Assembly (NCBI GenBank): GCA_951406725.2
Contig: OX597825.1
Location: 25,420,001-25,484,000 of the forward strand
Reading direction: 5' to 3'
DNA: 64,000 nt
Source: Octopus vulgaris
Taxonomy: Eukaryota
Position numbers and translations under genes: made by a program. The notes beneath the pieces are model-generated. The model did not search any database, was not told the DNA's origin, and was given only the letters and a program-made list of their open reading frames with translations. Below are positions 3,665 through 62,466 of this stretch, piece by piece. The stretch's first letter is position 1, and every line of letters begins with the position of its first letter.

Positions 3665-4115
3665 ATTTCGTATCTTAACGTTCTGAGTTCAAATTCCGCC
3701 GAGGTCGACTTTGCTTTCATCCTTTCAGGGTCAATAAATTAAGTACAAGTTGTGTACTGAGGCCAATCTAATCTACTGGCTCCCTCCCCCAAAATTTCGG
3801 GCCTTGTGCCTTGAGTAGAAAAGCTGGCGAGCTGGCAGGAAGTTAGCAGGCCGGATGAAATTTCGTCTGCCGCTACGTTCTGAGTTCAAATTCCGCCGAG
3901 GTCGACTTTGCCTTTCATCCTTACGGGGTCGCTGTGTTTAGCCCCTTGTGGGTAGTAAAGAAATAGGTCTGCCGCTACGTTCTGAGTTCAGATTCCGTCG
4001 AGGTCGACTTTGCCTTTCATCCTTTCGGGGTCAATTAAATAAGTACCAGTTACGCACTGGGGTCGATATAATCGACTTAATCCGTTTGTCTGTCCTTGTT
4101 TGTCCTCTCTGTGTT
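3665..4115 (+). mobile_element. tandem cluster of family C SINE copies
   Basis: Three successive TTCTGAGTTCARATTCCG...GTCGACTTTGC units. Confidence 0.85.
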
Positions 4116-4118
4116 TAC

Positions 4119-4490
4119 TGTAGTGTTGAGTTAGTTGTCTGTACTTCATTGGTGTAAAGTTATTTTTGTTCTTGATCAAGATCTGTGACAACTGCCTCTC
4201 TGTTTTCAAAGGAGAGTCTTTCTTTACTTTGCTGTAGCTACCATCACTTATAAGACTTGCCAGTTTTTCCGAGTAGTCAGACTTGTTCATTACCACTGTA
4301 GCATTTCCCTTGTCCGCTGGAAGTATTATGATGGAATAGTCACTTTGTAGTCTTTTGATAGCGAACCTTTTCTTCCTTAGTGATGTTTGGTTTGAGAAGT
4401 TTCGCCTTTTCTAGTACTTGTCTCACTTTACACCTTAGTTCATCTTCCTCAGCTTTTGGTATCGCTAGGGCTATCTCCTCATAATTGCAG
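4119..4490 (-). mobile_element. Penelope-like retroelement fragment (region upstream of the RT core)
   Basis: Translates to LPADKGNATVVMNKSDYSEKLASLISDGSYSKVKKD and KPNITKEEK; the xADKGxxxVVM motif is typical of PLE polyproteins. Confidence 0.8.
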
Positions 4491-4519
4491 TTATTAATAA
4501 ATAGCATTACGCTGGTAAT

Positions 4520-5197
4520 GGAGGTGGTGGCGGTGGTGGCGGTGGTGGTGGTGGTCGTCGTCGTTGTCATCGTATGATACAAAAAGGTGAATGTAAAATA
4601 GTGGGGGATGGGAGTTTGTTAGTGTGGATGGTGTTGGTGGCAGCATTGACGACTACGGCGACGTGGACGACGGAGAAGAAAAAGAAGAAGAAGAAGAAGA
4701 AGAAGAAGAAGAAGAAGAAGAAGAAGATGATGATGATGATGATGACAAACATGATGATGAAGAAAAAGAAAGGAGAAGAAGAAGACTGGGAAGAGCAAGA
4801 GGAGAAGAATAAGAATAAGAATGGGAAGAGCAAGAGGAGAAGAGGATGAAGGAGAAGGGCAAGAGGAGGAGGAGGAGGAGAATAATAATAATAAGATGAT
4901 GATAATGATGATGATGATGATGATAAATATGATGATGATGACGAAAGAAAAAGGAGAAGAAGAAAGGGAAGCGCAGGAGAAAGGGAAGAAGACGGGGAAG
5001 AGCAACAGGGGGAGGAGGAGAAGAAGAAGAAGGGAAAAAGGAGGAATGATGAGGGTGTTGAGGAAGTGGAGGAGAAGGACGACGATGATGACAATGATGA
5101 TGGTGATAATGACGATGGTTGTGATTGTTTTGAAGAAAGATTATGACTTCAGTGAGAGTAGAGAATGGGAGTGAGAGAGGGGAAGAAAGAGAGAGAC

Positions 5198-10960: not shown

Positions 10961-11174
10961 CGAATTAAAAGCATCTTTAGCAATGTAAACATTATCGATC
11001 GCGCATGCTCAGTGTATGTGTTACGCTTATAAACAAGATAGCGTCCTGGGAAAGCTCCTTGTACGACGCCGAGAGTTAAAGAATATTTGAATGTCGCAGA
11101 GTAGGCGAGACAACTCTCAGTAAATTCAGTCTATAAACAGAAAAATCCCCAGTGTGTAAGTGCGAACGATAGTG

Positions 11175-18031: not shown

Positions 18032-18190
18032 CATGTATATATATATATATATATATATTAATAAAAAGAATTCCAACCTTGTCTGATTTTCACGTTTTAT
18101 TTACAATCTTATAATGATATATTATAAGATAATATATTATAATTGAATAAAATAAAATGAAATAGTAGAATGTTAAATATTCATTCTGAT

Positions 18191-18729: not shown

Positions 18730-19626
18730 TTATTGCTTATTTAGCTTGGGTTCGAATTTATCAATAAAATTCTTTTCTCTGATTTTCCTCTCGATTTCAC
18801 TTGGGCTGTGTAATTTGTAGAATGGAAATATTATATATATTTTCCGACCACATGTTGCTAGGTGGTTACTCAAAGGTATCTGACGGACCTCTGGGTCTCT
18901 AATCTGTTGCCGGTGTACACGTGAGCGTTCTAATAGTGCGTTTCCCGTCTGACCTACATATATTTCTTCACAATTTGGGCATTTGATGCAGTAAATTAAA
19001 TTTCTGCTTTTGCAGTTCATATTCGCGTTTGTGAATATTTTCCCGGTTTTTGTGTTTATATATTGACCGGTATGTATGAATTGGCATGTGCCACATCGGC
19101 TATCATTGCATTTAGATACCGTGAATGTTTGGTCTTTGTTGCTGAGGTCAAATTTTGCCTTTGTTAGTAATGTTTTCAAGTTTTTAGGCTGTCTTTTACT
19201 AAGCACCATAGCTCGATCCTTGATTATGTCTTTTAATTCATTACTTTGGGCAATGATTGGTAGGTTTGCTTTGGCAATGTTGAAGATATTCTGGTGACAT
19301 GGGTTGTGTGTCACTATGAATGGTATGACTTGTTCTTGTTTTCCTCTTCCTTGGGTTGTCCTAAGTTGTTGTATAGGTATTTTTATAGCCCGCTGTATGC
19401 CATTTTCTATAAGTAGAGATGGGTATTTTTGTTTGAGCAAAAATTCTCTTAGTTCTATTAGGCGTTTGTTCCTGATATTTGCATCTTCTACAATAGTACA
19501 AATTCTTCTGGCTAGGCAGTATGGGATGTTACGTTTTGTATGTGGTGGATGGCACGACTTAAAATTTAGGTATTGATGTGTGTCTGTGTGTTTATAGTAT
19601 ATATCTGTGGTGATGGTGGTGTCTTT
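18730..19626 (-). CDS. PLE polyprotein C-terminal part: RT thumb, Cys-rich linker, GIY-YIG endonuclease (no start, truncated)
   Basis: Open frame: TDIYYKHTDTHQYLNFKSCHPPHTKRNIPY, CNDSRCGTC, NLIYCIKCPNCEEIYVGQTG, RxRVHRQ, SNHL, REKNFI..PKLN. Confidence 0.9.
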   Translation of the reverse strand, partial: KDTTITTDIYYKHTDTHQYLNFKSCHPPHTKRNIPYCLARRICTIVEDANIRNKRLIELREFLLKQKYPSLLIENGIQRAIKIPIQQLRTTQGRGKQEQVIPFIVTHNPCHQNIFNIAKANLPIIAQSNELKDIIKDRAMVLSKRQPKNLKTLLTKAKFDLSNKDQTFTVSKCNDSRCGTCQFIHTGQYINTKTGKIFTNANMNCKSRNLIYCIKCPNCEEIYVGQTGNALLERSRVHRQQIRDPEVRQIPLSNHLATCGRKIYIIFPFYKLHSPSEIERKIREKNFIDKFEPKLNKQ

Positions 19627-19719
19627 TTTATCATTATAAGATTGTAAATAAAACGTGAAAATCAGACAAGGTTGGAATTCTTTTTATTAATATATTCTTC
19701 TATACACAATCACACACCC

Positions 19720-29385: not shown

Positions 29386-30159
29386 ATCGAAAAATACCTT
29401 AGGAATGAGAACCCAGGTTCAAAATTTCCCCAAGTCACCCGAAGAAGGCTGGAGGGTATATCAAACAAGATGAGGACAAATATCCGTCGAATGTAAATAA
29501 TGTAAATAATGTAAAAGGAATACAAGTTTGGTGATGAGTAAAATTATGTCCATCAACTATACAATATAAAAGGAAGCGTATCATAAATAGCTAATGGAAA
29601 TTCATAGGATCAGATATGCTAGAACGAGTAAAGGAGAATAGGAGTAAGGAGTTCCAGAGGAAGAAAGAATCGATGGATGCAAAGAAATGAGTTACTGAGA
29701 TTTAACTGATGAAAGACATATTGAAAGTGATGAAAGTGTGAAATTATAATTGTAATTTGAGATAAGCTTGGTAAATGTTTTTGATGGATAAATATTTGTG
29801 GGTTTCTGAAGATAACATAGAAACCCAAAATTAAAGAAATTCTATGCAAACCGTTTGGAGACAAATAATCTTCTAGAAAAAAATTCGGTGATCATAAATG
29901 CGATAAAGTTTGGCTGTAGACACCACCAAATAAATTGCTATGCGAAGTGATGAAACTTGATTTATTTAGAATGGGTAACGACCTATATTAAAATTGGTTG
30001 CATAAACATGGAGAGGCAGACATATGTGTAAACATGAAAGCATACACAGATGTCCATACACGCATACGAGGTTGGGCTGGAAAGATCATAGGCTGTCTAT
30101 GAAGAAGTGATGATAGAGCTGTGAAATCTTGTATGCATTAATTTCGTATATACATATAT

Positions 30160-30323
30160 ACGACGGGCTTCTTTCAATTTCCTTCAGCCAAATCTACTTA
30201 CAAGGCTTTGGTCGGCCCGAGGCTATAGTGGAAGACAGTCGCCCACGGTGCCACGCAGTGGGACTGAACCCGGAACCATGTGGTTCGTAAGCAACCACTT
30301 ACCACACAGCCACTCCTACGCCT
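30160..30323 (-). mobile_element. SINE family B, 5' half
   Basis: Reverse complement of the head and CORE-like segment. Confidence 0.82.
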
Positions 30324-30504
30324 ATTATAAAAAAAACAACATAAGTACCTGTGTTGATACCTGCCCAAAAAACTGAATATTGCATATAGACACAAGAACG
30401 AACACACATCTTGGCACAGATGTTGATACACAACCACACATATTGCAGCTCTCACTTGTAAACGACTATGACATGGTACTAAGTACCAAGCCTTCGCTAG
30501 TTGT

Positions 30505-30723
30505 TTTAGGTGTATATAGTATTACGAGTGATAAAGACACCCTGTCAGCCTGCCTCCTCTCGATCCAGTGGGGTATCGAGGATGAAGGGAAAGAACGCTG
30601 CACCAGAAGTCTGTTGTTCGGCTGCAGCAACGAAAAATGAAACGCATTCATCAAGGACTCAACGTCCGGAATTGAACCCACAACTTCATGCTCCGAAGGC
30701 CAACGTTTTAACCGCTGGTCCAC
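30505..30723 (-). mobile_element. tRNA-derived SINE of a fourth family (Arg-TCG-like head)
   Basis: GTGGACCAGCGGTTAA A-box, CTTCGGA loop, GGTTCAATTCC B-box, non-tRNA body. Confidence 0.55.
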
Positions 30724-30795
30724 ATACCTTTGCCAAGTGCACGTACATATAAATATATATGTACATGTATAAATCCATGCATAAACATGTCTCTG

Positions 30796-30884
<89 letters not shown>

Positions 30885-30886
<2 letters not shown>

Positions 30887-31080
30887 CGTTTTTGGATTTG
30901 GTTTTCAAGATTCTTTATATGAGTTCGTGTGTTGAAGCATATTCTGTTATGTTTGGGGAGAGTCATTTTCTTTTTTTTGCCTTATTATGTAACACACTCA
31001 CCGGTAAAATTTCCACTTTTTTCTTATTTGTATTTTCCTAAAATTTTCGTTGCGTCTTGCAACCTTTTCAATAGTTTTGA
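30885..31080 (-). mobile_element. short PLE-type insert: HHR plus conserved terminal motif, in (TA)n
   Basis: HHR at 31038-31074 and 34-nt motif at 30905-30938. Confidence 0.65.
31038..31074 (-). ncRNA. minimal hammerhead, U3-A8 variant
   Basis: CUA-UUGAAAA-G-GUUGC-AAGAC-GCAAC-GAAA-AU-UU-UAG. Confidence 0.6.
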
Positions 31081-31175
31081 TATATATATATGTTTTGGGC
31101 GAAATGCCCCTAAGCATTTCGTTCATTGTGTTAACGATTCTACCAGCTCGCCACCTTTAAATGATAATGATGATG

Positions 31176-31250
<75 letters not shown>

Positions 31251-32012
31251 GGAGGGTTCTGAGCACTTGAAAGACTGCTGAAAACTTGTAGATTCCTAAG
31301 GTTACAGGTAGTAACCCACTACCCACATAAGTCCTGCCAGGAATAAGACCAACCTGAACTAAACCAAAATAATGATACATACATACATACATACATACAT
31401 ACATACATACATACATACATACATACAAACACATATACATACATACATACATACATACATACAGACATACATACATACATACTTACGTACCTACACACAT
31501 ATGCGTGTGTGTATATATATAAGCGTGACTGCATGTATGTGAGCGTCTGTGTGGCTTGATTTGTTTTTAAATTCTAATAAATCGAACATATCGATTCTCC
31601 TTTAATATAGTTAATCACTATGAAAGCGATATTTGATTATGGACAAAACTAATTATAAGGGCTTTGGTAGCTCTGTATTACTGTAAATTATAATGAATAT
31701 TTTTAGTAGGGAAGTTAAGTAGTAAGAATATAAATCTGAAGATTTAACATTTGAGTTAGAAGCGACTCTATAATGTAAACGTTGTAAGCTCTATGATCTA
31801 AATGTAATGCATACATCAATTGCTTTGAAGTATGCTATGTTTTCAATATACTACGCCCAAAAGCGTTTAACATGAGACATACATTAAGAACGTGTGACAT
31901 AGATAATATTTACATTACACAGATGCTTTTAACTCAAAATTAAAATTTTGTTTTACTTGCGTAGCGCAGTAGTAAGTCAGCTGATAGATTTTTACTCTAT
32001 CTGTCTATATTT

Positions 32013-32113
32013 CGGGCGGGCGGGCTGGTAATTTGATTTCCTCTTGAGGGTCATTCGATTATACGGAACTGATGAGCTGAAGTAAAAGCGAAATCTCGAT
32101 ACCATTCGTTCGT
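32013..32113 (+). ncRNA. type III hammerhead-like motif with extended closing helix
   Basis: UUGAGGGUC-A-UUCG-AUUAUA-CGGA-A-CUGAUGA-GCU-GAAGUAAA-AGC-GAAA-UCUCGA. Confidence 0.55.
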
Positions 32114-32388
32114 GTTCACCCCCGGGGCGATTCATTACGCCTGGGTTTGAAGAATATTGGTGCTTCTCAACACACTGCGACTTTAAAAGGAGATTCCCTG
32201 AACGAAATACTGCAGCCAAAAAGCATTTAGCAACACTCATACAAGAAGTATGTGGCATCGATAACACACACACAACCATATATATCTGAATAGATCCATA
32301 TATATATACATATAAATGTCTATATTTAAGCAAGTATGTATGTATCTATTTATTTATGTGTGTATATGTATATATACATATACACATC

Positions 32389-32439
<51 letters not shown>

Positions 32440-32442
<3 letters not shown>

Positions 32443-32846
32443 TCTTTTACTCTTTTAGTTGTTTCAGTCATTTGACTGCGGCCAAGCTGGAGCACCGCCT
32501 TTAGTCGAGCAAATCGACCCCAGGACTTATTCTTTGTAAGCCCAGTACTTATTCTATCGGTCTCTTTTGCCGAATCGCTAAGTGACGGGGACGTAAACAC
32601 ACCAGCATCGGTTGTCAAGCAATGCTAGGGGGACAAACACAGACACACAAACATATACACACACACTTATATATATATACATATATACGACAGGCCTCTT
32701 TCAGTTTCCGTCTACCAAATCCACTCATAAGGCTTTGGTCGGCCCGAGGCTATAGTAGAAGACACCTGCCCAAGGTGCCACGCAGTGGGACTGAACCCGG
32801 AATCAGGTGGCAGGTAAGCAAGCTACTTACCACACAGCCACTCCTA
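32440..32846 (-). mobile_element. SINE family B
   Basis: Near-full reverse-complement copy. Confidence 0.88.
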
Positions 32847-33579
32847 TATATATATAAACGTATACGTGCCCGTGAATGTGTGAATTTATGTGACCTTCAA
32901 ACCTATATGTGTGTGTGTGTGTGTGTGTCTGTGTGCTCACTTATCATTACTGAAGACGAAACTCATTTCTTCTTATCAGTAAAAGACTGTCATTCTATCT
33001 GACAAGGATTTGTTTCTCGTTCGCTTAACGCCACGAAAACCAAGATAAACCACTACCGTTGATATCTAAATACGATAAAAAATAAAATTGATGGAATAAT
33101 TCGTCTTTCTGTCAGTTGGCTGTTAACTATATCATTTTTACATTTTTTCTTAATATCGTAATTCTCAAAAAAAAAAAAAAAAAAAAAAATGGTATTTCCA
33201 AAAGAATAATTTTTGAAAAGGAAAAAATAAATGGTATAAATAAGATGAAGTGTAGGTATGTCTTGGTCGAGCTGGTTCGGACGTGCTGGAATCTCTGACA
33301 TCAACTTTCATGACCTTGCATCGCATAGGAACCGTAAGGTGAACAGAGTGCCACACTTCACCCTACAAAGCTGCTGTATGAAGGCTTTTGCTAGACGATT
33401 GATCCGTGTATGTCTTTGTAGAGGTGTCTCTAAGGGTGGATCAATAACGATTTCCTGCTCAGCCTTTCAGCAATGTTTTGCAAATTGCATTCGGTTCACT
33501 CATCTCTCTCTCTCTCTCTCTCCCTTTCTATCTCTCTCCCTTTCTCTCTCTCTCCTTTTCTCTTTCCCGTTCTGTCTCT

Positions 33580-33850
33580 TATGTTTTACTTGCTTCGGTC
33601 ATTGGAGATCGGCTATGCAGGGGCACAGGTTTGAAGGGTTTACTTGATAGAAATCGAACCCCAATTCTAATTTTTTAAAAGTCTGGTACTTATTCTCTCT
33701 GTCTCTTTATGCCGAACCGCTTCTTCTATTAAGACATCAACAAACCAATACCGATTGTCAAGCTGTGGAGTGGGGGACAGAACAAATACAAAATATAAAC
33801 ATGCTCAAACTCACGCACACATATATTCGACGGGTATCCACACAGTTCAC
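33580..33850 (-). mobile_element. diverged SINE family B
   Basis: Degenerate tail and body. Confidence 0.6.
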
Positions 33851-33888
33851 ACAGTGAAATGCCCCCTTTACACACACACAGAGGAAAT

Positions 33889-33944
<56 letters not shown>

Positions 33945-33982
33945 GTAGTACTACGACTACTACTACTAGCAGCAGCAATAGT

Positions 33983-34195
33983 AAGGCAGCGAGCTGGCAA
34001 AATCGTTAGGACGCCGGACAAAGTCCTCAACAGTATTTTGCCCTACTTTACGTTCTGAGTTCAAATTCCGCCGGGGTCCATTTTGACTTTCGTCCTTTCG
34101 GGGTCGATAAAATAAGTACCAGTTGAGTACTGGGGCCGTAATCAACTTAATTTCTTCCTCAAAATTGTTGACCTTGCGCCAAAATTTGAAACCAT
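33983..34195 (+). mobile_element. SINE family C
   Basis: Head and Nin-like domain. Confidence 0.8.
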
Positions 34196-36221: not shown

Positions 36222-36549
36222 TTTACGGAGATGTACTCGCATAGCAAGTAATTTGATCTGAGATCGTGTGCTGAAACGAAAACAATTGTAGCGTGGAAGG
36301 TGTTTATAAGCCATTTAAGAAACACACAAAAGCCGTTCGATTCACTTCAACATTTAAGTTTAATTTGTCAAAATATTTTCGTCGCTAAAATCCGCGACCT
36401 GTTCACTGCACGGATTTTTGTCAGTGAACAGGTCGCGGATTTTAGCGACGAAAATATTTTGACAAATTAAACTTAAATGTTGGAGTGAATCGAACGGCTT
36501 TTGTGTGTTTCTTAAATGGCTTATAAACACCTTCCACGCTGCAATTGTT
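36222..36549. mobile_element. foldback PLE-type insert with 14-bp TSD
   Basis: 128-bp arms at 36281-36408/36422-36549; TSD AATATTACATCTTT at 36208-36221 and 36550-36563. Confidence 0.9.
36417..36466 (+). ncRNA. minimal hammerhead, G3-C8 variant
   Basis: UUUGUCA-GUGAACA-G-GUCGC-GGAUUUUA-GCGAC-GAAA-AUAU-UU-UGACAAA. Confidence 0.7.
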
Positions 36550-36812
36550 AATATTACATCTTTAACTACAAAATAGTACTTGATGTTCATACACATTTTG
36601 ATATTTATATATTTGATATCTTTATACTTTCAGTTAAATATATATATTCATGTAGATTATTTAATTCAATTATCATTTATATTATTATATTACCCCTCCA
36701 TTACACCTATATTTAGTATCATTTTATACCAATCACCATAAATAACCAATCTATTTGTAAACACCATGAGTAACCTTCTACCAATATTTGAGCATACACA
36801 ATTGCTTTTATA

Positions 36813-42290: not shown

Positions 42291-43131
42291 CTTCTGCCAC
42301 AAAGCAGAGGAACCATGGTGTAACCCACTATGGTGTGGCAAACTTTCAGACCCTAGTCTAGATTGCGAATCCTCAGTACCCCAGGATGGTTCAGCTCTCC
42401 ACCCGTGAAAAGACACTGTTCACGGAATGAGGATAACAACGTAGCTTTCGCGCCCGTGCAACCGCCAGTCTATCGCGTGTGGTGGGTGGATCTTCAAGTT
42501 GCCGCACGCATTTTTAGTAGCTTAGAGTAGGCTCGAATTAGAGATTATTCTTTGTGGCTAATGGCGTTTAGTCCTGATTGGAAGAAGAAGAGGAAAAAGA
42601 AGAAGAAGAAGAAGACAACAGCTACACAAATAATAAAAACAACTGCAGCAGCAGCAACAACAACAATAGCAACAACAATAACAACAACAACAACAACAAC
42701 GTGATAGTAATTATATGAAACGTTGGTTGTATGTAGAAATAGCAACAGAAATATTCGTGCAAGCAACAATAGCAGTATTAGCAACAGTGATAGCAGTAAT
42801 ATACACAGCAGCGTGACTAACAACAGTAGCGCCAGGTGTACAACGACAGGGGCTGTATTTACGTTGTCACGTGTGCAACTAGAAATAGCAGCCAAATTTC
42901 CCGCAAACCACATCTTACTATGTTAAAATGAAGGATACATGAGTTAATATAGAGTGGCGTATATTATTGACGAGAAAAAATAAAATAAATGCAGCGAGTT
43001 TACAGAATCGTTAGAGCATCGGAGAGAATGCGTTGCAATATTTACTTCAACTTTTTACGTTCTAAATTCAAATCCTGCCAGAATCAACTTAGCTTTTCAC
43101 ATTTCCGGTGTTGATAAAATAGCTATCAAGC

Positions 43132-43542
43132 ATTAAGACCTATAGTGAGCTGTAGAGGTTCAGCATGTTATCCACTGAGTCGCTTCCTTGTGGATATAAT
43201 CAGTCCATTTGCAGGAAAGTCAACATCGTACGTGAAGAATTCCACACACTTCACAGAATTGATCAAGGATACCCCCATTGAATCCAAACAGATGATGAGT
43301 CTAGATGTGATAAGTCTGTTCACCAAAGTCCCAACTGGTGAAGCACTATCGGTGATTCAAGAAAAACTAGTGACAGACACCCATCTAAAAGAACGCACTA
43401 GTATACCAATAAAAAACTTGATGGAAATGTTGACCTTCTGTTTAGAAACTACCTACTTCAGTATGGACACTGATGTATATATCGACATGAAGATGGTTTA
43501 GCAATGGGTTCGCCATTATCACCGATAATAGCCAATATTCTT
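43132..43542 (+). mobile_element. Penelope-like reverse transcriptase fragment
   Basis: LRPIVSCRGSACYPLSRFL...SYVKNS...SLDVISLFTKVP, then frameshifted GLAMGSPLSPIIANI. Confidence 0.9.
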
Positions 43543-45814: not shown

Positions 45815-47237
45815 CTCACTCGCACACATAGTTGCATTAAGTCTGGTGCATCATACAATTAGTCAGAGTTTGAAACTGTCGGTACTTATATGTTTAATAC
45901 AAAGTTCTCTATATTGTGGACGACTTGAAAACATTTCGTTCGTAAACAATAGAGCTAATTATGTATGCTTGCAGGTATATATTTAAATATACTGGGAAAG
46001 AGCATGATCTACAATAGTAGATATTAATCAAGACATCTAGTAAACTCTTCCGACATTGCTCGCAATGCTGCGCTTCCATAGTTTTCTTCAGGGGAGATTG
46101 AGTAACGATGATTTTAGAGCCTGCTGTGTCTCTATATATGGATACCAATCGGATCAACGCAAGAGTCTCTGGGTAAAGTGAAAACAAGATCCATTTTTAT
46201 CAAAAACATACGCTTAATCGACAAATATATATAAACAAAACGGGTCCCTTTGGTGATTAACATTTTTTAAGTGCATGACTTGCGGGAAATAGAGGCAAAG
46301 CAATGATAAGATTTTGAGTGCATACCTACTCTCGTTTTTGAGAAGGTATACTTTACCGAGCATTAACATTTATATATCGACTGGTTAACATTGACGGAAA
46401 ATTAGAATATTTATCAATTCCAACCAAAGAAGTTTGAACACTCTAAAATTTTAACCACTAAAAATTACGTGTACGAGAGAATTTCGTAAGCACACCTTCC
46501 GTTTCTATATTTTTAGATTAAGCAGGTATTTTGTTCTTTCGGTTTATGGTAAAACGACTGTTTGTTTCGGTTCATCCTAAATGTTTTTTGCAAACCCTGC
46601 TGCTATTTATATACAGAGATAGCGTACATGAAAATACAATTACTCTTATTCTCCTGATGAGCTATGAAAGCGAGCGAAACCTTGCACAAGCTGCACAAAC
46701 ATTTTATTAGATATTTAGTTTAACGACATGTAATATAATGCCATTTTTTAATATATTTAAATGTATACCTACATGCATATAAATATATACACATAAATGT
46801 ATGTATGTATATGCAGAGTTCAATTCTCCGTGGCGCCTTCTATCAATTTTTTTCTCCATCTATAGGGGTATTTTTACCACATTCTTTGAAGCTGTTTTCA
46901 CAGATATTCTCCTGCGTTCAAATTTTCTTAAATTTTAAAAACATGTTACTCACTCGACGCTTCAATGTTTTTTTTTATAAAAATGTCCTCGCATTTCATA
47001 AAGTTATTAATTTAGCGTTACAAAATACGGCATCAGTTGTCACAGGGGTCATTTAGCTCAACGGTATTGAGCACTGAGCCGTAATTTAAGAGGTACAGAG
47101 TTTGATACACTAGAGCTGCTGCTAGCTACCCCTTTCTGTCTATAGAGACATTTTTACCCGATTTTCTAAAGCTACTTTCATAGCTGTTCTGCGTTCGAGA
47201 TTTTCTCAATATATATAAGAAAGAAGAAAAAACAAAG

Positions 47238-61274: not shown

Positions 61275-62466
61275 TATAGATTAAATGGTAAATTACAGCT
61301 CTGAACTAATTGTGGTTTCTGATTTACAGGTGTTTGAACTGAGTCAAGTGTGAAATGGAGCCTGTTGAGTGTCGAGCAGTGATTCGGTTTTTGTATTTGA
61401 AAGGACGCACACCACGGGAAACTTTTGATAAAATGAAAATAACTTATGGTGATGATGCCCCATCCTATGACCTTGTAAAACGCTGGCATCGTGAATTCAA
61501 ACATGGTCGGAACTCTGTGGAAACAGCTCCCATATCTGGTCGCCCCCTTCTGCCATTGATGAGGCAATTGAGGCTGCCATTTTGGAAGATCGACGCATAA
61601 CTATTCGCCAAATAGCCCATGAAGTCAAGATTAGTACCGGGTCTGTGGAAACTATCATTCATGACCATTTGCATATGCAGAAGGTGTCTGCCAGATGGAT
61701 TCCCAGGTTGCTCACACCTTTCCAGAAGCAAGAACGCGTCGAGTGCTCGAGGATGAATTTGGAGATGTGCCAAGAAGATGAGTCAAAATCTTTCAAAAGA
61801 CTGATTGCACAGGATGAAACCTGGGTCCCTCACGATGATCCAGAGACCAAAGCCCAGTCAATGCAGTGGAAGCACCGTGACTCATATCCTCCAAAGAAGG
61901 AAAGGGTGCAGCCCTCCGCTGGCAAAGTCATGCTCACAGTCTTCTGGGACCAGGACGGAGTAGTGATGACAGATTTCCTGGCAAAGGGTACCACAATTAC
62001 AGGAGCCTATTATACTTCACTTTTGAGGAAATTAAGAGAAGCTATCAAAATCAAGAGGCGGGGCAAGATCAGCAAAGGCATCCTCCTCCTGCAGGACAAC
62101 GCTCCGGTCCACAACTTGCATGTCGCCAGATCAGAAGCACAGGCGTGTGGCTATGAACTCCTCCCCCATCCCCCTACTCTCCTGACCTTGCACCCTCTGA
62201 TTTTCACCTCTGCCCAGCCATGAAGTTGTTTTTGAAAAGAAAGCGTTTCCCAGATGATGCAGCCTTGATTTCTGAAGTCACGTCGTGGTTGGAGGACCAA
62301 GCTGGGATCTTCTACAAAAACGGTCTCCAGAGCTGCATCAAACGATGGGAGAAATGCGTAACTCTGGGTGGTTCCAATGTAGAACAAGACGAATAACTGT
62401 GCCAAGTTTCGTTGCTCTACTGCTATGGGAAGTGGGTCAGGGGCATTACGTATTGAACGCCCCTCG
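61275..62466 (+). mobile_element. mariner (D,D34D-type) element with 3' TIR
   Basis: Near-complete transposase; end ...ATTGAACGCCCCTCG-TA. Confidence 0.92.
61355..62395 (+). pseudogene. mariner transposase pseudogene (two frame disruptions)
   Basis: RAVIRFLYLKG..VKRWHREFK, SARWIPRLL, QDETWV, QDNAPVH, then shifted PYSPDLAPSDF..KRWEKCV..*. Confidence 0.9.

What the first reader, a model, noticed from the sequence alone, without database searches (positions are those of the whole stretch)
32013..32146. Type III hammerhead-like RNA in a GC-rich island
Seen: GUC site (32050-32052), stem-loop I UUCG-AUUAUA-CGGA, CUGAUGA (32069-32075), stem-loop II GCU-GAAGUAAA-AGC, GAAA, and stem III UCUCGA pairing with UUGAGGG with one bulge. 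The helix continues with UGGUA/UACCA and G-U-rich GCGGGCGGG/UUCGUUCGU, which pairs as RNA but is not a DNA inverted repeat. A further hairpin lies at about 32121-32145. Defects: an A-A mismatch at the base of stem I and a bulge in stem III. Known: animal repeat HHRs are mostly type I, whereas type III is typical of viroids, satellite RNAs and plant retrozymes. Inference: a decayed copy of a retrozyme-like or circular-RNA element.
Basis: partly seen in the sequence, partly recalled or inferred. Interest (0 to 1): 0.7.

Follow-up and report, generated by a model that had tools for sequence, protein, structure and literature searches.

The report
Decayed type I hammerhead in retrozyme
This stretch is an ordinary find: an old, mutated copy of a small repeat whose relatives carry the usual animal (type I) self-cutting hammerhead RNA; this copy is likely dead, and its unusual 'type III' look likely comes from a chance letter change.

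Summary
The hammerhead core is real, but its topology is type I, not type III. CUGAUGA, helix II and GAAA sit where stated, and the core is well above chance (2 in the window; 0.017 expected). At least 10 related loci decide the topology. All 3 readable at the 'type III' site have GUG, which cannot be cut, instead of GUC. All 3 singly readable copies that keep the stretch after GAAA have an AUC triplet, with helix I formed by the downstream strand and compensatory changes in two. This copy has lost core U16.1 (ACC), as have its orthologues, and one orthologue has an insertion in the core. Neither active fold is populated in silico. The motif lies in a 360-bp unit with a partial tandem repeat and an inverted 5' piece, the layout of Penelope-type insertions and animal non-LTR retrozymes. 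The scan already noted 359-364-bp retrozyme families on other DNA of this genome; identity with them was not shown. Cleavage and expression are untested. Low interest.

The parts
31731..31833 (-). Inverted, diverged copy of the start of the unit (31848-31955); resembles the inverted 5'-truncated piece of Penelope-type insertions
   Evidence: 69 of 110 columns identical, 0 of 1000 shuffles as good; also seen by blastn, E 2.5e-12
31848..32207 (+). One whole unit, about 360 bp, 40% G+C, no recognisable coding frame, one hammerhead
   Evidence: period 360 from the offset scan and alignment; G+C; related contigs at about 80-87% identity over three parts of it in all five runs laid; six-frame translation and tblastn
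32207..32281 (+). Partial second unit in tandem (repeats 31848-31924)
   Evidence: 54 of 78 columns identical, 0 of 1000 shuffles as good
32048..32055 (+).
   Evidence: pairs G48-C121, G49-C120, G50-C119, U51-A118, A53-U116, mismatch C52/C117; loose ends before 32055 and 32060
32063..32068 (+). Helix I, 5' strand (positions 2.6 to 2.1)
   Evidence: pairs A63-U109, C64-G108, G65-C107, G66-U106, A67-U105; compensatory changes in relatives
32069..32075 (+). Catalytic core strand CUGAUGA (C3-A9); a T is inserted behind 32069 in the orthologue of organism D
32076..32089 (+). Helix II: 3 bp in this copy; 4 bp (G79-C86) in 4 of 6 related contigs of run X1 that cover 32086
   Evidence: 32086 A>C; contigs assigned by summing depths
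32090..32103 (+). GAAA, short helix III with a UCGA loop, and the type I triplet at 32101-03: AUC in relatives, ACC here (U16.1 changed to C); 32095 is A in 4 of 6 X1 relatives, which makes 32093-32102 a 10-base palindrome
32104..32109 (+). Helix I, 3' strand (1.1 to 1.6); A32104 is specific to the window allele, the three other alleles or orthologues have U, which pairs with A32068
   Evidence: records 9, 17, 23
32016..32030 (+). G-rich strand of the outer helix in the MFE fold (partner 32100-32113); it masks the helix I 3' strand; four bases at 32013 are absent in organisms B and D
   Evidence: deletion rows
32122..32145 (+). Small hairpin 3' of the ribozyme (GGGCG/CGCCU); conservation not tested

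Best explanation
This is an old, mutated copy of a roughly 360-bp interspersed repeat whose relatives carry a canonical animal type I hammerhead; it is likely a non-LTR retrozyme monomer pasted in by a Penelope-type retrotransposon, and this copy likely no longer cleaves. Shown by sequence: the core, the 360-bp period, the inverted 5' piece, the AUC site and helix I partner 3' of the core in relatives, and the U16.1-to-C change in this locus and its orthologues. Inferred mechanism for the ancestral element: a longer-than-unit transcript folds helix I (32063-68 with 32104-09), a 4-bp helix II and a short helix III capped by a palindromic UCGA loop, cuts after 32103 as a monomer or a dimer, yields a unit-length RNA that may circularise, and is reverse-transcribed by a Penelope-type RT/GIY-YIG enzyme. 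Copying past the unit junction would give the 1.2-unit tandem, and the inverted 5' piece is the known by-product of such insertions. After insertion the copy decayed; a G-to-C change at 32052 created the GUC that mimics a type III site.
For: Type I site: U-C directly after A32101 in 3 of 3 singly readable related loci that keep the stretch (X1/X2 piece 32056-32150 in the difference table; X5 loose end; X5/X8 loose end behind 32086) and in 4 of 4 pooled loose-end rows behind 32101 (X1, X2, X5; X6); a fourth locus has lost this stretch. Helix I covaries: the 32056-32150 relative has U67-A105 and A65-U107 where the window has A67-U105 and G65-C107, and U104 opposite A68; a second has A65-U107; a third has U67-A105 and G66-C106. 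Type III site absent: G at 32052 in 3 of 3 readable loci. Helix sizes (6, 4 and 2-3 bp with a palindromic loop) fit the canonical metazoan type I form in PMC4209133. Unit length 360 bp and 40% G+C fit 150-450 bp and under 50% G+C, with 350-390 bp in mussel (PMC7229834). Partial tandem plus adjacent inverted 5' copy is described for Penelope-like elements (PMC8557442). A GIY-YIG frame lies in the same window (PF01541, E 5.9e-6). Decay: C32102 in all 4 versions of the locus seen, core insertion in organism D, active folds under 1e-8 of the ensemble.
Against: I could not fetch whole related copies: the comparison rests on difference tables and 30-letter loose ends, some pooled from 2-3 contigs, and the tool lists only part of the differences (13 of 17 for the best copy). 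Four related loci cover 32052 without a listed letter. Helix I is imperfect in relatives too (4 of 6 and 5 of 6 pairs in two of them). No copy with two whole hammerheads in tandem was seen. No target-site duplication was found (best shared word 8 bases, A+T only). The 360-bp unit folds no better than shuffles (z -0.34). The mobilising enzyme, cleavage and circles are inferred from other species.
Confidence: 0.8

Rival explanations
1. Same type I hammerhead, but the unit is the terminal repeat (pLTR) of an autonomous Penelope-like element whose coding body is missing here, not a self-contained retrozyme.
For: Penelope-like elements carry type I hammerheads in their pLTRs and leave many single truncated motifs (PMC4209133); tandem plus inverted layout is theirs (PMC8557442); retrozymes and pLTRs are related (bioRxiv 10.64898/2026.07.22.740005).
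Against: No coding frame is recognisable in the unit; the window's GIY-YIG frame matches it only at E=3.8. The second unit repeats the start of the first at 360 bp. The helices fit the canonical form better than the minimal form with a 7-8 bp helix II.
Confidence: 0.12
2. Topology switch: after the type I site died, the G-to-C change at 32052 let the same core work as a type III ribozyme that cuts after 32052.
For: All core letters are intact in this allele and in organism B; a GUC with 4 stem I pairs and 7 stem III pairs arises in only 497 of 20000 shuffles; stem I pairs have probability 0.33-0.50; C32052 is shared by all 4 versions of the locus.
Against: A-A at 1.1/2.1 fails the filter of PMC3088659; pair 15.2-16.2 is G-U and followed by a bulge; helix II has only 3 bp; the fold is about 11 kcal/mol above the MFE; organism D has an insertion in the core; 2 of 8 differences among orthologues in 32000-32178 fall in the 56-base motif against 2.5 expected, so no sign of constraint. 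A 2.5% look-alike rate is unremarkable among many decayed copies.
Confidence: 0.04
3. The family is ancestrally type III, or the locus is an inserted piece of a viroid-like or deltavirus-like circular RNA.
For: Type III hammerheads occur in HDV-like circles of toads and termites (PMC7761336 passages); the window allele can be drawn as type III.
Against: G at 32052 in 3 of 3 readable relatives and a conserved 3' site; no Hammerhead_3 match; 38 viral contigs with the same core share nothing with the unit beyond the core (best E 0.44); the flanks have a retro-insertion layout.
Confidence: 0.02
4. Chance look-alike with no ribozyme ancestry.
For: No Rfam hit at gathering level; fold z-scores are not significant.
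Against: Core far above chance; at least 10 related loci with compensatory changes in helix I.
Confidence: 0.02

Closest known systems
Metazoan non-LTR retrozymes (Cervera and de la Pena 2020, PMC7229834; mussel repeats of 350-390 bp; Li, Clavereau and Pollet 2026, bioRxiv 10.64898/2026.07.22.740005)
   Same: Non-coding unit of 360 bp, 40% G+C, one type I hammerhead per unit, tandem continuation, dispersed related copies.
   Different: Only 1.2 units and one hammerhead here (a monomer derivative in the terms of Li et al.); core U16.1 lost; no target-site duplication found; expression and circles untested.
Canonical metazoan type I hammerheads and Penelope-like element hammerheads (Cervera and de la Pena 2014, PMC4209133)
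   Same: Helix I about 6 bp, helix II 4 bp in relatives, short helix III capped by a palindromic loop; G10.1-C11.1.
   Different: Not the minimal variant with a long helix II; this copy has lesions at 16.1, 15.3, helix II pair 4 and, in this allele, 1.1.
Penelope-like element insertion structure (Craig et al. 2021, PMC8557442)
   Same: Partial tandem with an inverted 5'-truncated copy next to it.
   Different: No RT or endonuclease frame in the insertion; the 30-40 bp tail was not identified.
Type III hammerheads of plant LTR retrozymes, viroids and HDV-like circles (Rfam Hammerhead_3; PMC6155905, PMC7761336)
   Same: The window allele can be drawn with a GUC 5' of the core.
   Different: No Rfam match, 1.1/2.1 mispaired, site not conserved in relatives, no two hammerheads about 700 bp apart, G+C below 55%.

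Membership tests
Type III hammerhead | Intact core C3-A9 and G12-A14 | tested here: met
   broken by an insertion in the organism D orthologue
Type III hammerhead | NUH site 5' of the core, conserved in the family | tested here: not met
   GUC in this locus only; G at 32052 in 3 of 3 readable relatives
Type III hammerhead | Pair 1.1-2.1 and a populated closed stem I and stem III | tested here: not met
   A53/A68 mismatch; stem III pair probability 0.000; no Hammerhead_3 match at E up to 10
Type I hammerhead (family level) | NUH site 3' of GAAA with A15.1-U16.1 | tested here: met
   AUC in 3 of 3 singly readable relatives that keep the stretch; not met in this copy (ACC)
Type I hammerhead (family level) | Open helix I between the strand before CUGA and the strand after the site, with covariation | tested here: met
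   5 of 6 pairs in the window; compensatory changes at 65/107 and 67/105 in relatives
Type I hammerhead (this copy) | Unchanged core and paired core-flanking positions | tested here: not met
   C at 16.1 in all 4 versions of the locus; A/A at 1.1-2.1 in this allele; criteria from PMC3088659
Type I hammerhead (this copy) | Self-cleavage | not testable with these tools
   needs a bench assay
Non-LTR retrozyme | Non-coding unit of 150-450 bp, G+C under 50%, one type I hammerhead | tested here: met
   360 bp, 0.40; no coding frame recognised
Non-LTR retrozyme | Tandem copies with at least two whole hammerheads somewhere in the family | tested here: inconclusive
   1.2 units here; whole related copies could not be fetched
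Non-LTR retrozyme | Dispersed multi-copy family | tested here: met
   at least 10 other loci over the ribozyme part, more over the flanks, one more piece in the window at 10962-11028
Non-LTR retrozyme | Expressed as linear and circular unit-length RNA | not tested
   no RNA run was laid
Autonomous Penelope-like element | RT and GIY-YIG frame between the repeats | tested here: not met
   none within the insertion
Autonomous Penelope-like element | Partial tandem with adjacent inverted 5' copy | tested here: met
   description in PMC8557442

The most novel reading that the evidence does not exclude
A dead type I hammerhead was re-wired into a working type III ribozyme by one point change that created an upstream GUC, reusing the same core and helix II: a natural switch of ribozyme topology by point mutation in an animal genome.
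Probability: 0.04. Interest if true: 0.6.

Novelty: new member of a known kind. Interest (0 to 1): 0.12.

Why it matters
As it stands it matters little: one decayed copy of a known kind of element, in a group where type I hammerheads are already annotated (235 in the giant squid, PMC6962438). It is a useful caution: a decayed type I core acquires a convincing type III drawing in roughly 2.5-9% of shuffles, so single-copy 'type III in animals' calls need a family alignment. If the topology switch were real, it would show a one-step path between hammerhead types.

Tried and rejected
No whole genome is held for this window, so no genome-wide copy count or family alignment. Rfam scans: microsatellite-driven miRNA hits only in 30000-34000; HH9 at E=3; nothing at gathering level. 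No second copy of the ribozyme stretch in the window by blastn. I first suspected terminal inverted repeats around the motif (a MITE); left and right flanks are direct, not inverted, repeats (inverted score beaten by 430 of 500 shuffles). A degraded endonuclease frame in the flanks: not supported. Target-site duplication: none found. Sequencing runs: no RNA holder listed, which says nothing about expression; of 24 listed runs I laid 5, all DNA or unlabelled, and no RNA run. A motif scan of JGI metagenomes found 0 loci; 38 viral loci share the core only. The re-wired (non-circularly permuted) hammerheads noted elsewhere in this genome were considered: not needed, because the order here is core strand, GAAA, site, which is plain type I. 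Look-ups of earlier findings by sequence and by place found nothing. The second core at 46654 is not detectably related to this unit beyond the core. Contig depths of relatives (41-70 in X1, against 28-40 for the locus) give no sign of a young high-copy subfamily near this copy, but contig depth is not a copy number.

Full report
Setting. The window is microsatellite-rich animal DNA, 35.7% G+C, with 175 tandem-repeat rows. Earlier notes of the scan call the genome octopus-like; the repeat at about 32466-32620 looks to me like a common octopus SINE, which is recall and not a tool result. No genome is held for the window, so related copies were read from assembled contigs of public runs.

The observation. 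The core, taken as CUGANGA, a helix of at least 3 bp opening with G-C, then GAAA, occurs twice in the window (32069 and 46654) against a mean of 0.017 in 300 shuffles. The type III drawing is much weaker. The 134 bases fold no better than shuffles (z -0.68; 40 of 200 as good). In the MFE fold GAAA is paired with 32035-39. Forcing the type III core costs about 11 kcal/mol, and its share of the ensemble is 5e-9; forcing type I gives 5e-10. The outer helix is separated from the proposed stem III by 13 unpaired bases. Rfam returns only the type I family HH9, at 12.9 bits and E=3, and nothing at gathering level. With the core fixed, shuffled upstream sequence gives an equally good type III decoration in 497 of 20000 trials, and in 1781 of 20000 if stem III needs only 5 pairs (thresholds chosen after the fact).

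Related copies. Thirteen of 24 listed runs hold part of 31900-32280, from six organism labels. I laid five of them (X1, X5, X6, X8; X1, X2, X5, X8). Over 32000-32178, 31 contigs were laid and 27 shown. Grouping pieces with the same ends across runs (my inference) gives at least 10 loci besides this one, at about 80-87% identity. The tool shows only some differences and 30-letter loose ends, so what follows is a partial reading. I assigned differences to contigs by summing depths.

The 3' side of the core. The relative spanning 32056-32150 (X1, X2) has U at 32102, U at 32104, A at 32105 and U at 32107, with U at 32067 and A at 32065. That gives an AUC triplet at 32101-03 and a helix between 32063-68 and 32104-09 with two compensatory changes against the window (A67-U105 to U-A; G65-C107 to A-U). 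This copy also has a core lesion (32093). A second relative (X5) reads UC after 32101 and keeps A65-U107, with 4 of 6 pairs. A third (X5, X8) reads AUC then UACCGU, 5 of 6 pairs. The four pooled loose-end rows behind 32101 all start with UC. One relative has lost about ten bases here. In 4 of 6 X1 relatives 32095 is A, which makes 32093-32102 a palindrome with a UCGA loop, and in 4 of 6, 32086 is C, which adds a fourth pair to helix II. Helices of 6, 4 and 2-3 bp with a palindromic loop III are the canonical metazoan type I form (PMC4209133).

The 5' side. Where relatives can be read at 32050-52 (three loci; loose ends before 32055 and 32060) all have GUG. This G would pair with C32117 in a distal helix I, of which five pairs remain in the window. 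Four other loci cover the place, but their letter is not listed. The GUC is therefore best read as a change in this locus.

The locus in other samples. A second individual of the same organism label differs at only 32104-05 (U, C); organisms B and D share those letters (records 9, 17, 23). So the window's A32104 is a recent allele, while C32102 (U16.1 lost) and C32052 are in all four versions. Organism D has a T inserted behind 32069, inside the core. B and D lack four bases at 32013, so part of the G-U-rich helix depends on a lineage-specific length change. Counting events in 32000-32178 (32010, 32013, 32020, 32069, 32098, 32104-05, 32109, 32145), 2 of 8 fall in the 56-base type III motif, against 2.5 expected by length. 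The numbers are small, but there is no sign of constraint.

The element. 31848-31924 recurs at 32207-32281 (54 of 78 identical; 0 of 1000 shuffles), a period of 360 bp, and 31848-31955 recurs inverted at 31731-31833 (69 of 110; 0 of 1000). The unit has 40% G+C and no recognisable coding frame. Animal non-LTR retrozymes are tandem repeats of 150-450 bp, under 50% G+C, with type I hammerheads; mussel units are 350-390 bp and are expressed as circles (PMC7229834). Penelope-like insertions form partial tandems with an adjacent inverted 5'-truncated copy (PMC8557442), and retrozymes are argued to be their non-autonomous derivatives, with dispersed monomers (bioRxiv 10.64898/2026.07.22.740005). A GIY-YIG frame lies at 18733-19683 of this window. 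No target-site duplication was found.

Mechanism. Shown: the anatomy, the family's type I arrangement, the lesions. Inferred from other species: cleavage after 32103 in the ancestral RNA, unit-length or circular RNA, and copying by a Penelope-type enzyme. One study found that hammerhead cleavage was not needed for insertion by a lizard Penelope-like protein in vitro (PMC11167929), so the role of cleavage in mobility is itself unsettled. By the filter of PMC3088659 (any core change, or a mispair next to the core) this allele is rejected under both drawings; that paper says its rejected hits were mainly cryptic mutant hammerheads in repeats.

Novelty. Type I hammerheads are already annotated in a cephalopod genome (235 in giant squid, PMC6962438). 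Seven searches showed no paper on this particular family; the library lacks most subscription papers. Earlier notes of this scan describe 359-364-bp retrozyme families with Penelope-type insertion marks on other DNA of this genome. They are unchecked notes; sequence look-ups did not link them to this copy.

What I saw of each paper. PMC4209133: parts 1-2 of 4 of the text. bioRxiv 10.64898/2026.07.22.740005: part 1 of 5 and passages. PMC7229834, PMC3088659, PMC8557442, PMC11167929, PMC6155905, PMC7761336, PMC6962438: passages only. No supplements were read; their alignments might hold this family.

Verdict. A real but decayed type I hammerhead in a retrozyme-like monomer (0.80), or in a pLTR remnant (0.12); a working type III by topology switch 0.04; other readings 0.04. 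New member of a known kind; interest 0.12.

Noticed in passing
window 46654-46680 (+), with 46067-46245 inverted against 46492-46675: A second hammerhead core (CUGAUGA, 3-bp helix, GAAA, with an apparent 4-base duplication in helix II and no clear site) in another old inverted-repeat arrangement (114 of 193 identical, 0 of 300 shuffles); not related to the 360-bp unit beyond the core.
   Followed up: partly
window 10962-11028 (-): Another piece of the same 360-bp family, matching 31861-31935 (55 of 76 identical, 0 of 300 shuffles).
   Followed up: partly
window 18733-19683 (-): Open 317-aa frame with a C-terminal GIY-YIG domain (PF01541), the 3' end of a Penelope-like element; a 54-base piece of its start is repeated inverted at 18065-18118.
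   Followed up: partly
window 43118-43501 (+) and 3988-4618 (-): Frames that look to me like Penelope-type reverse transcriptase fragments (recalled motifs); Pfam gave no supporting match for the two tested.
   Followed up: partly
window 61495-62223 (+): Mariner-type transposase fragment (PF01359, E 1.5e-24).
   Followed up: partly
L001-L038 (for example L002, L008, L009, L035): Many of the 38 viral contigs, mostly 4-20 kb, share a hammerhead core preceded by GGUUAA and followed by a G+C-rich hairpin, apparently one type I family; hosts and genes not examined.
   Followed up: no
window 36330-36560: A long, nearly perfect inverted repeat (MITE-like) seen and hit on both strands.
   Followed up: no
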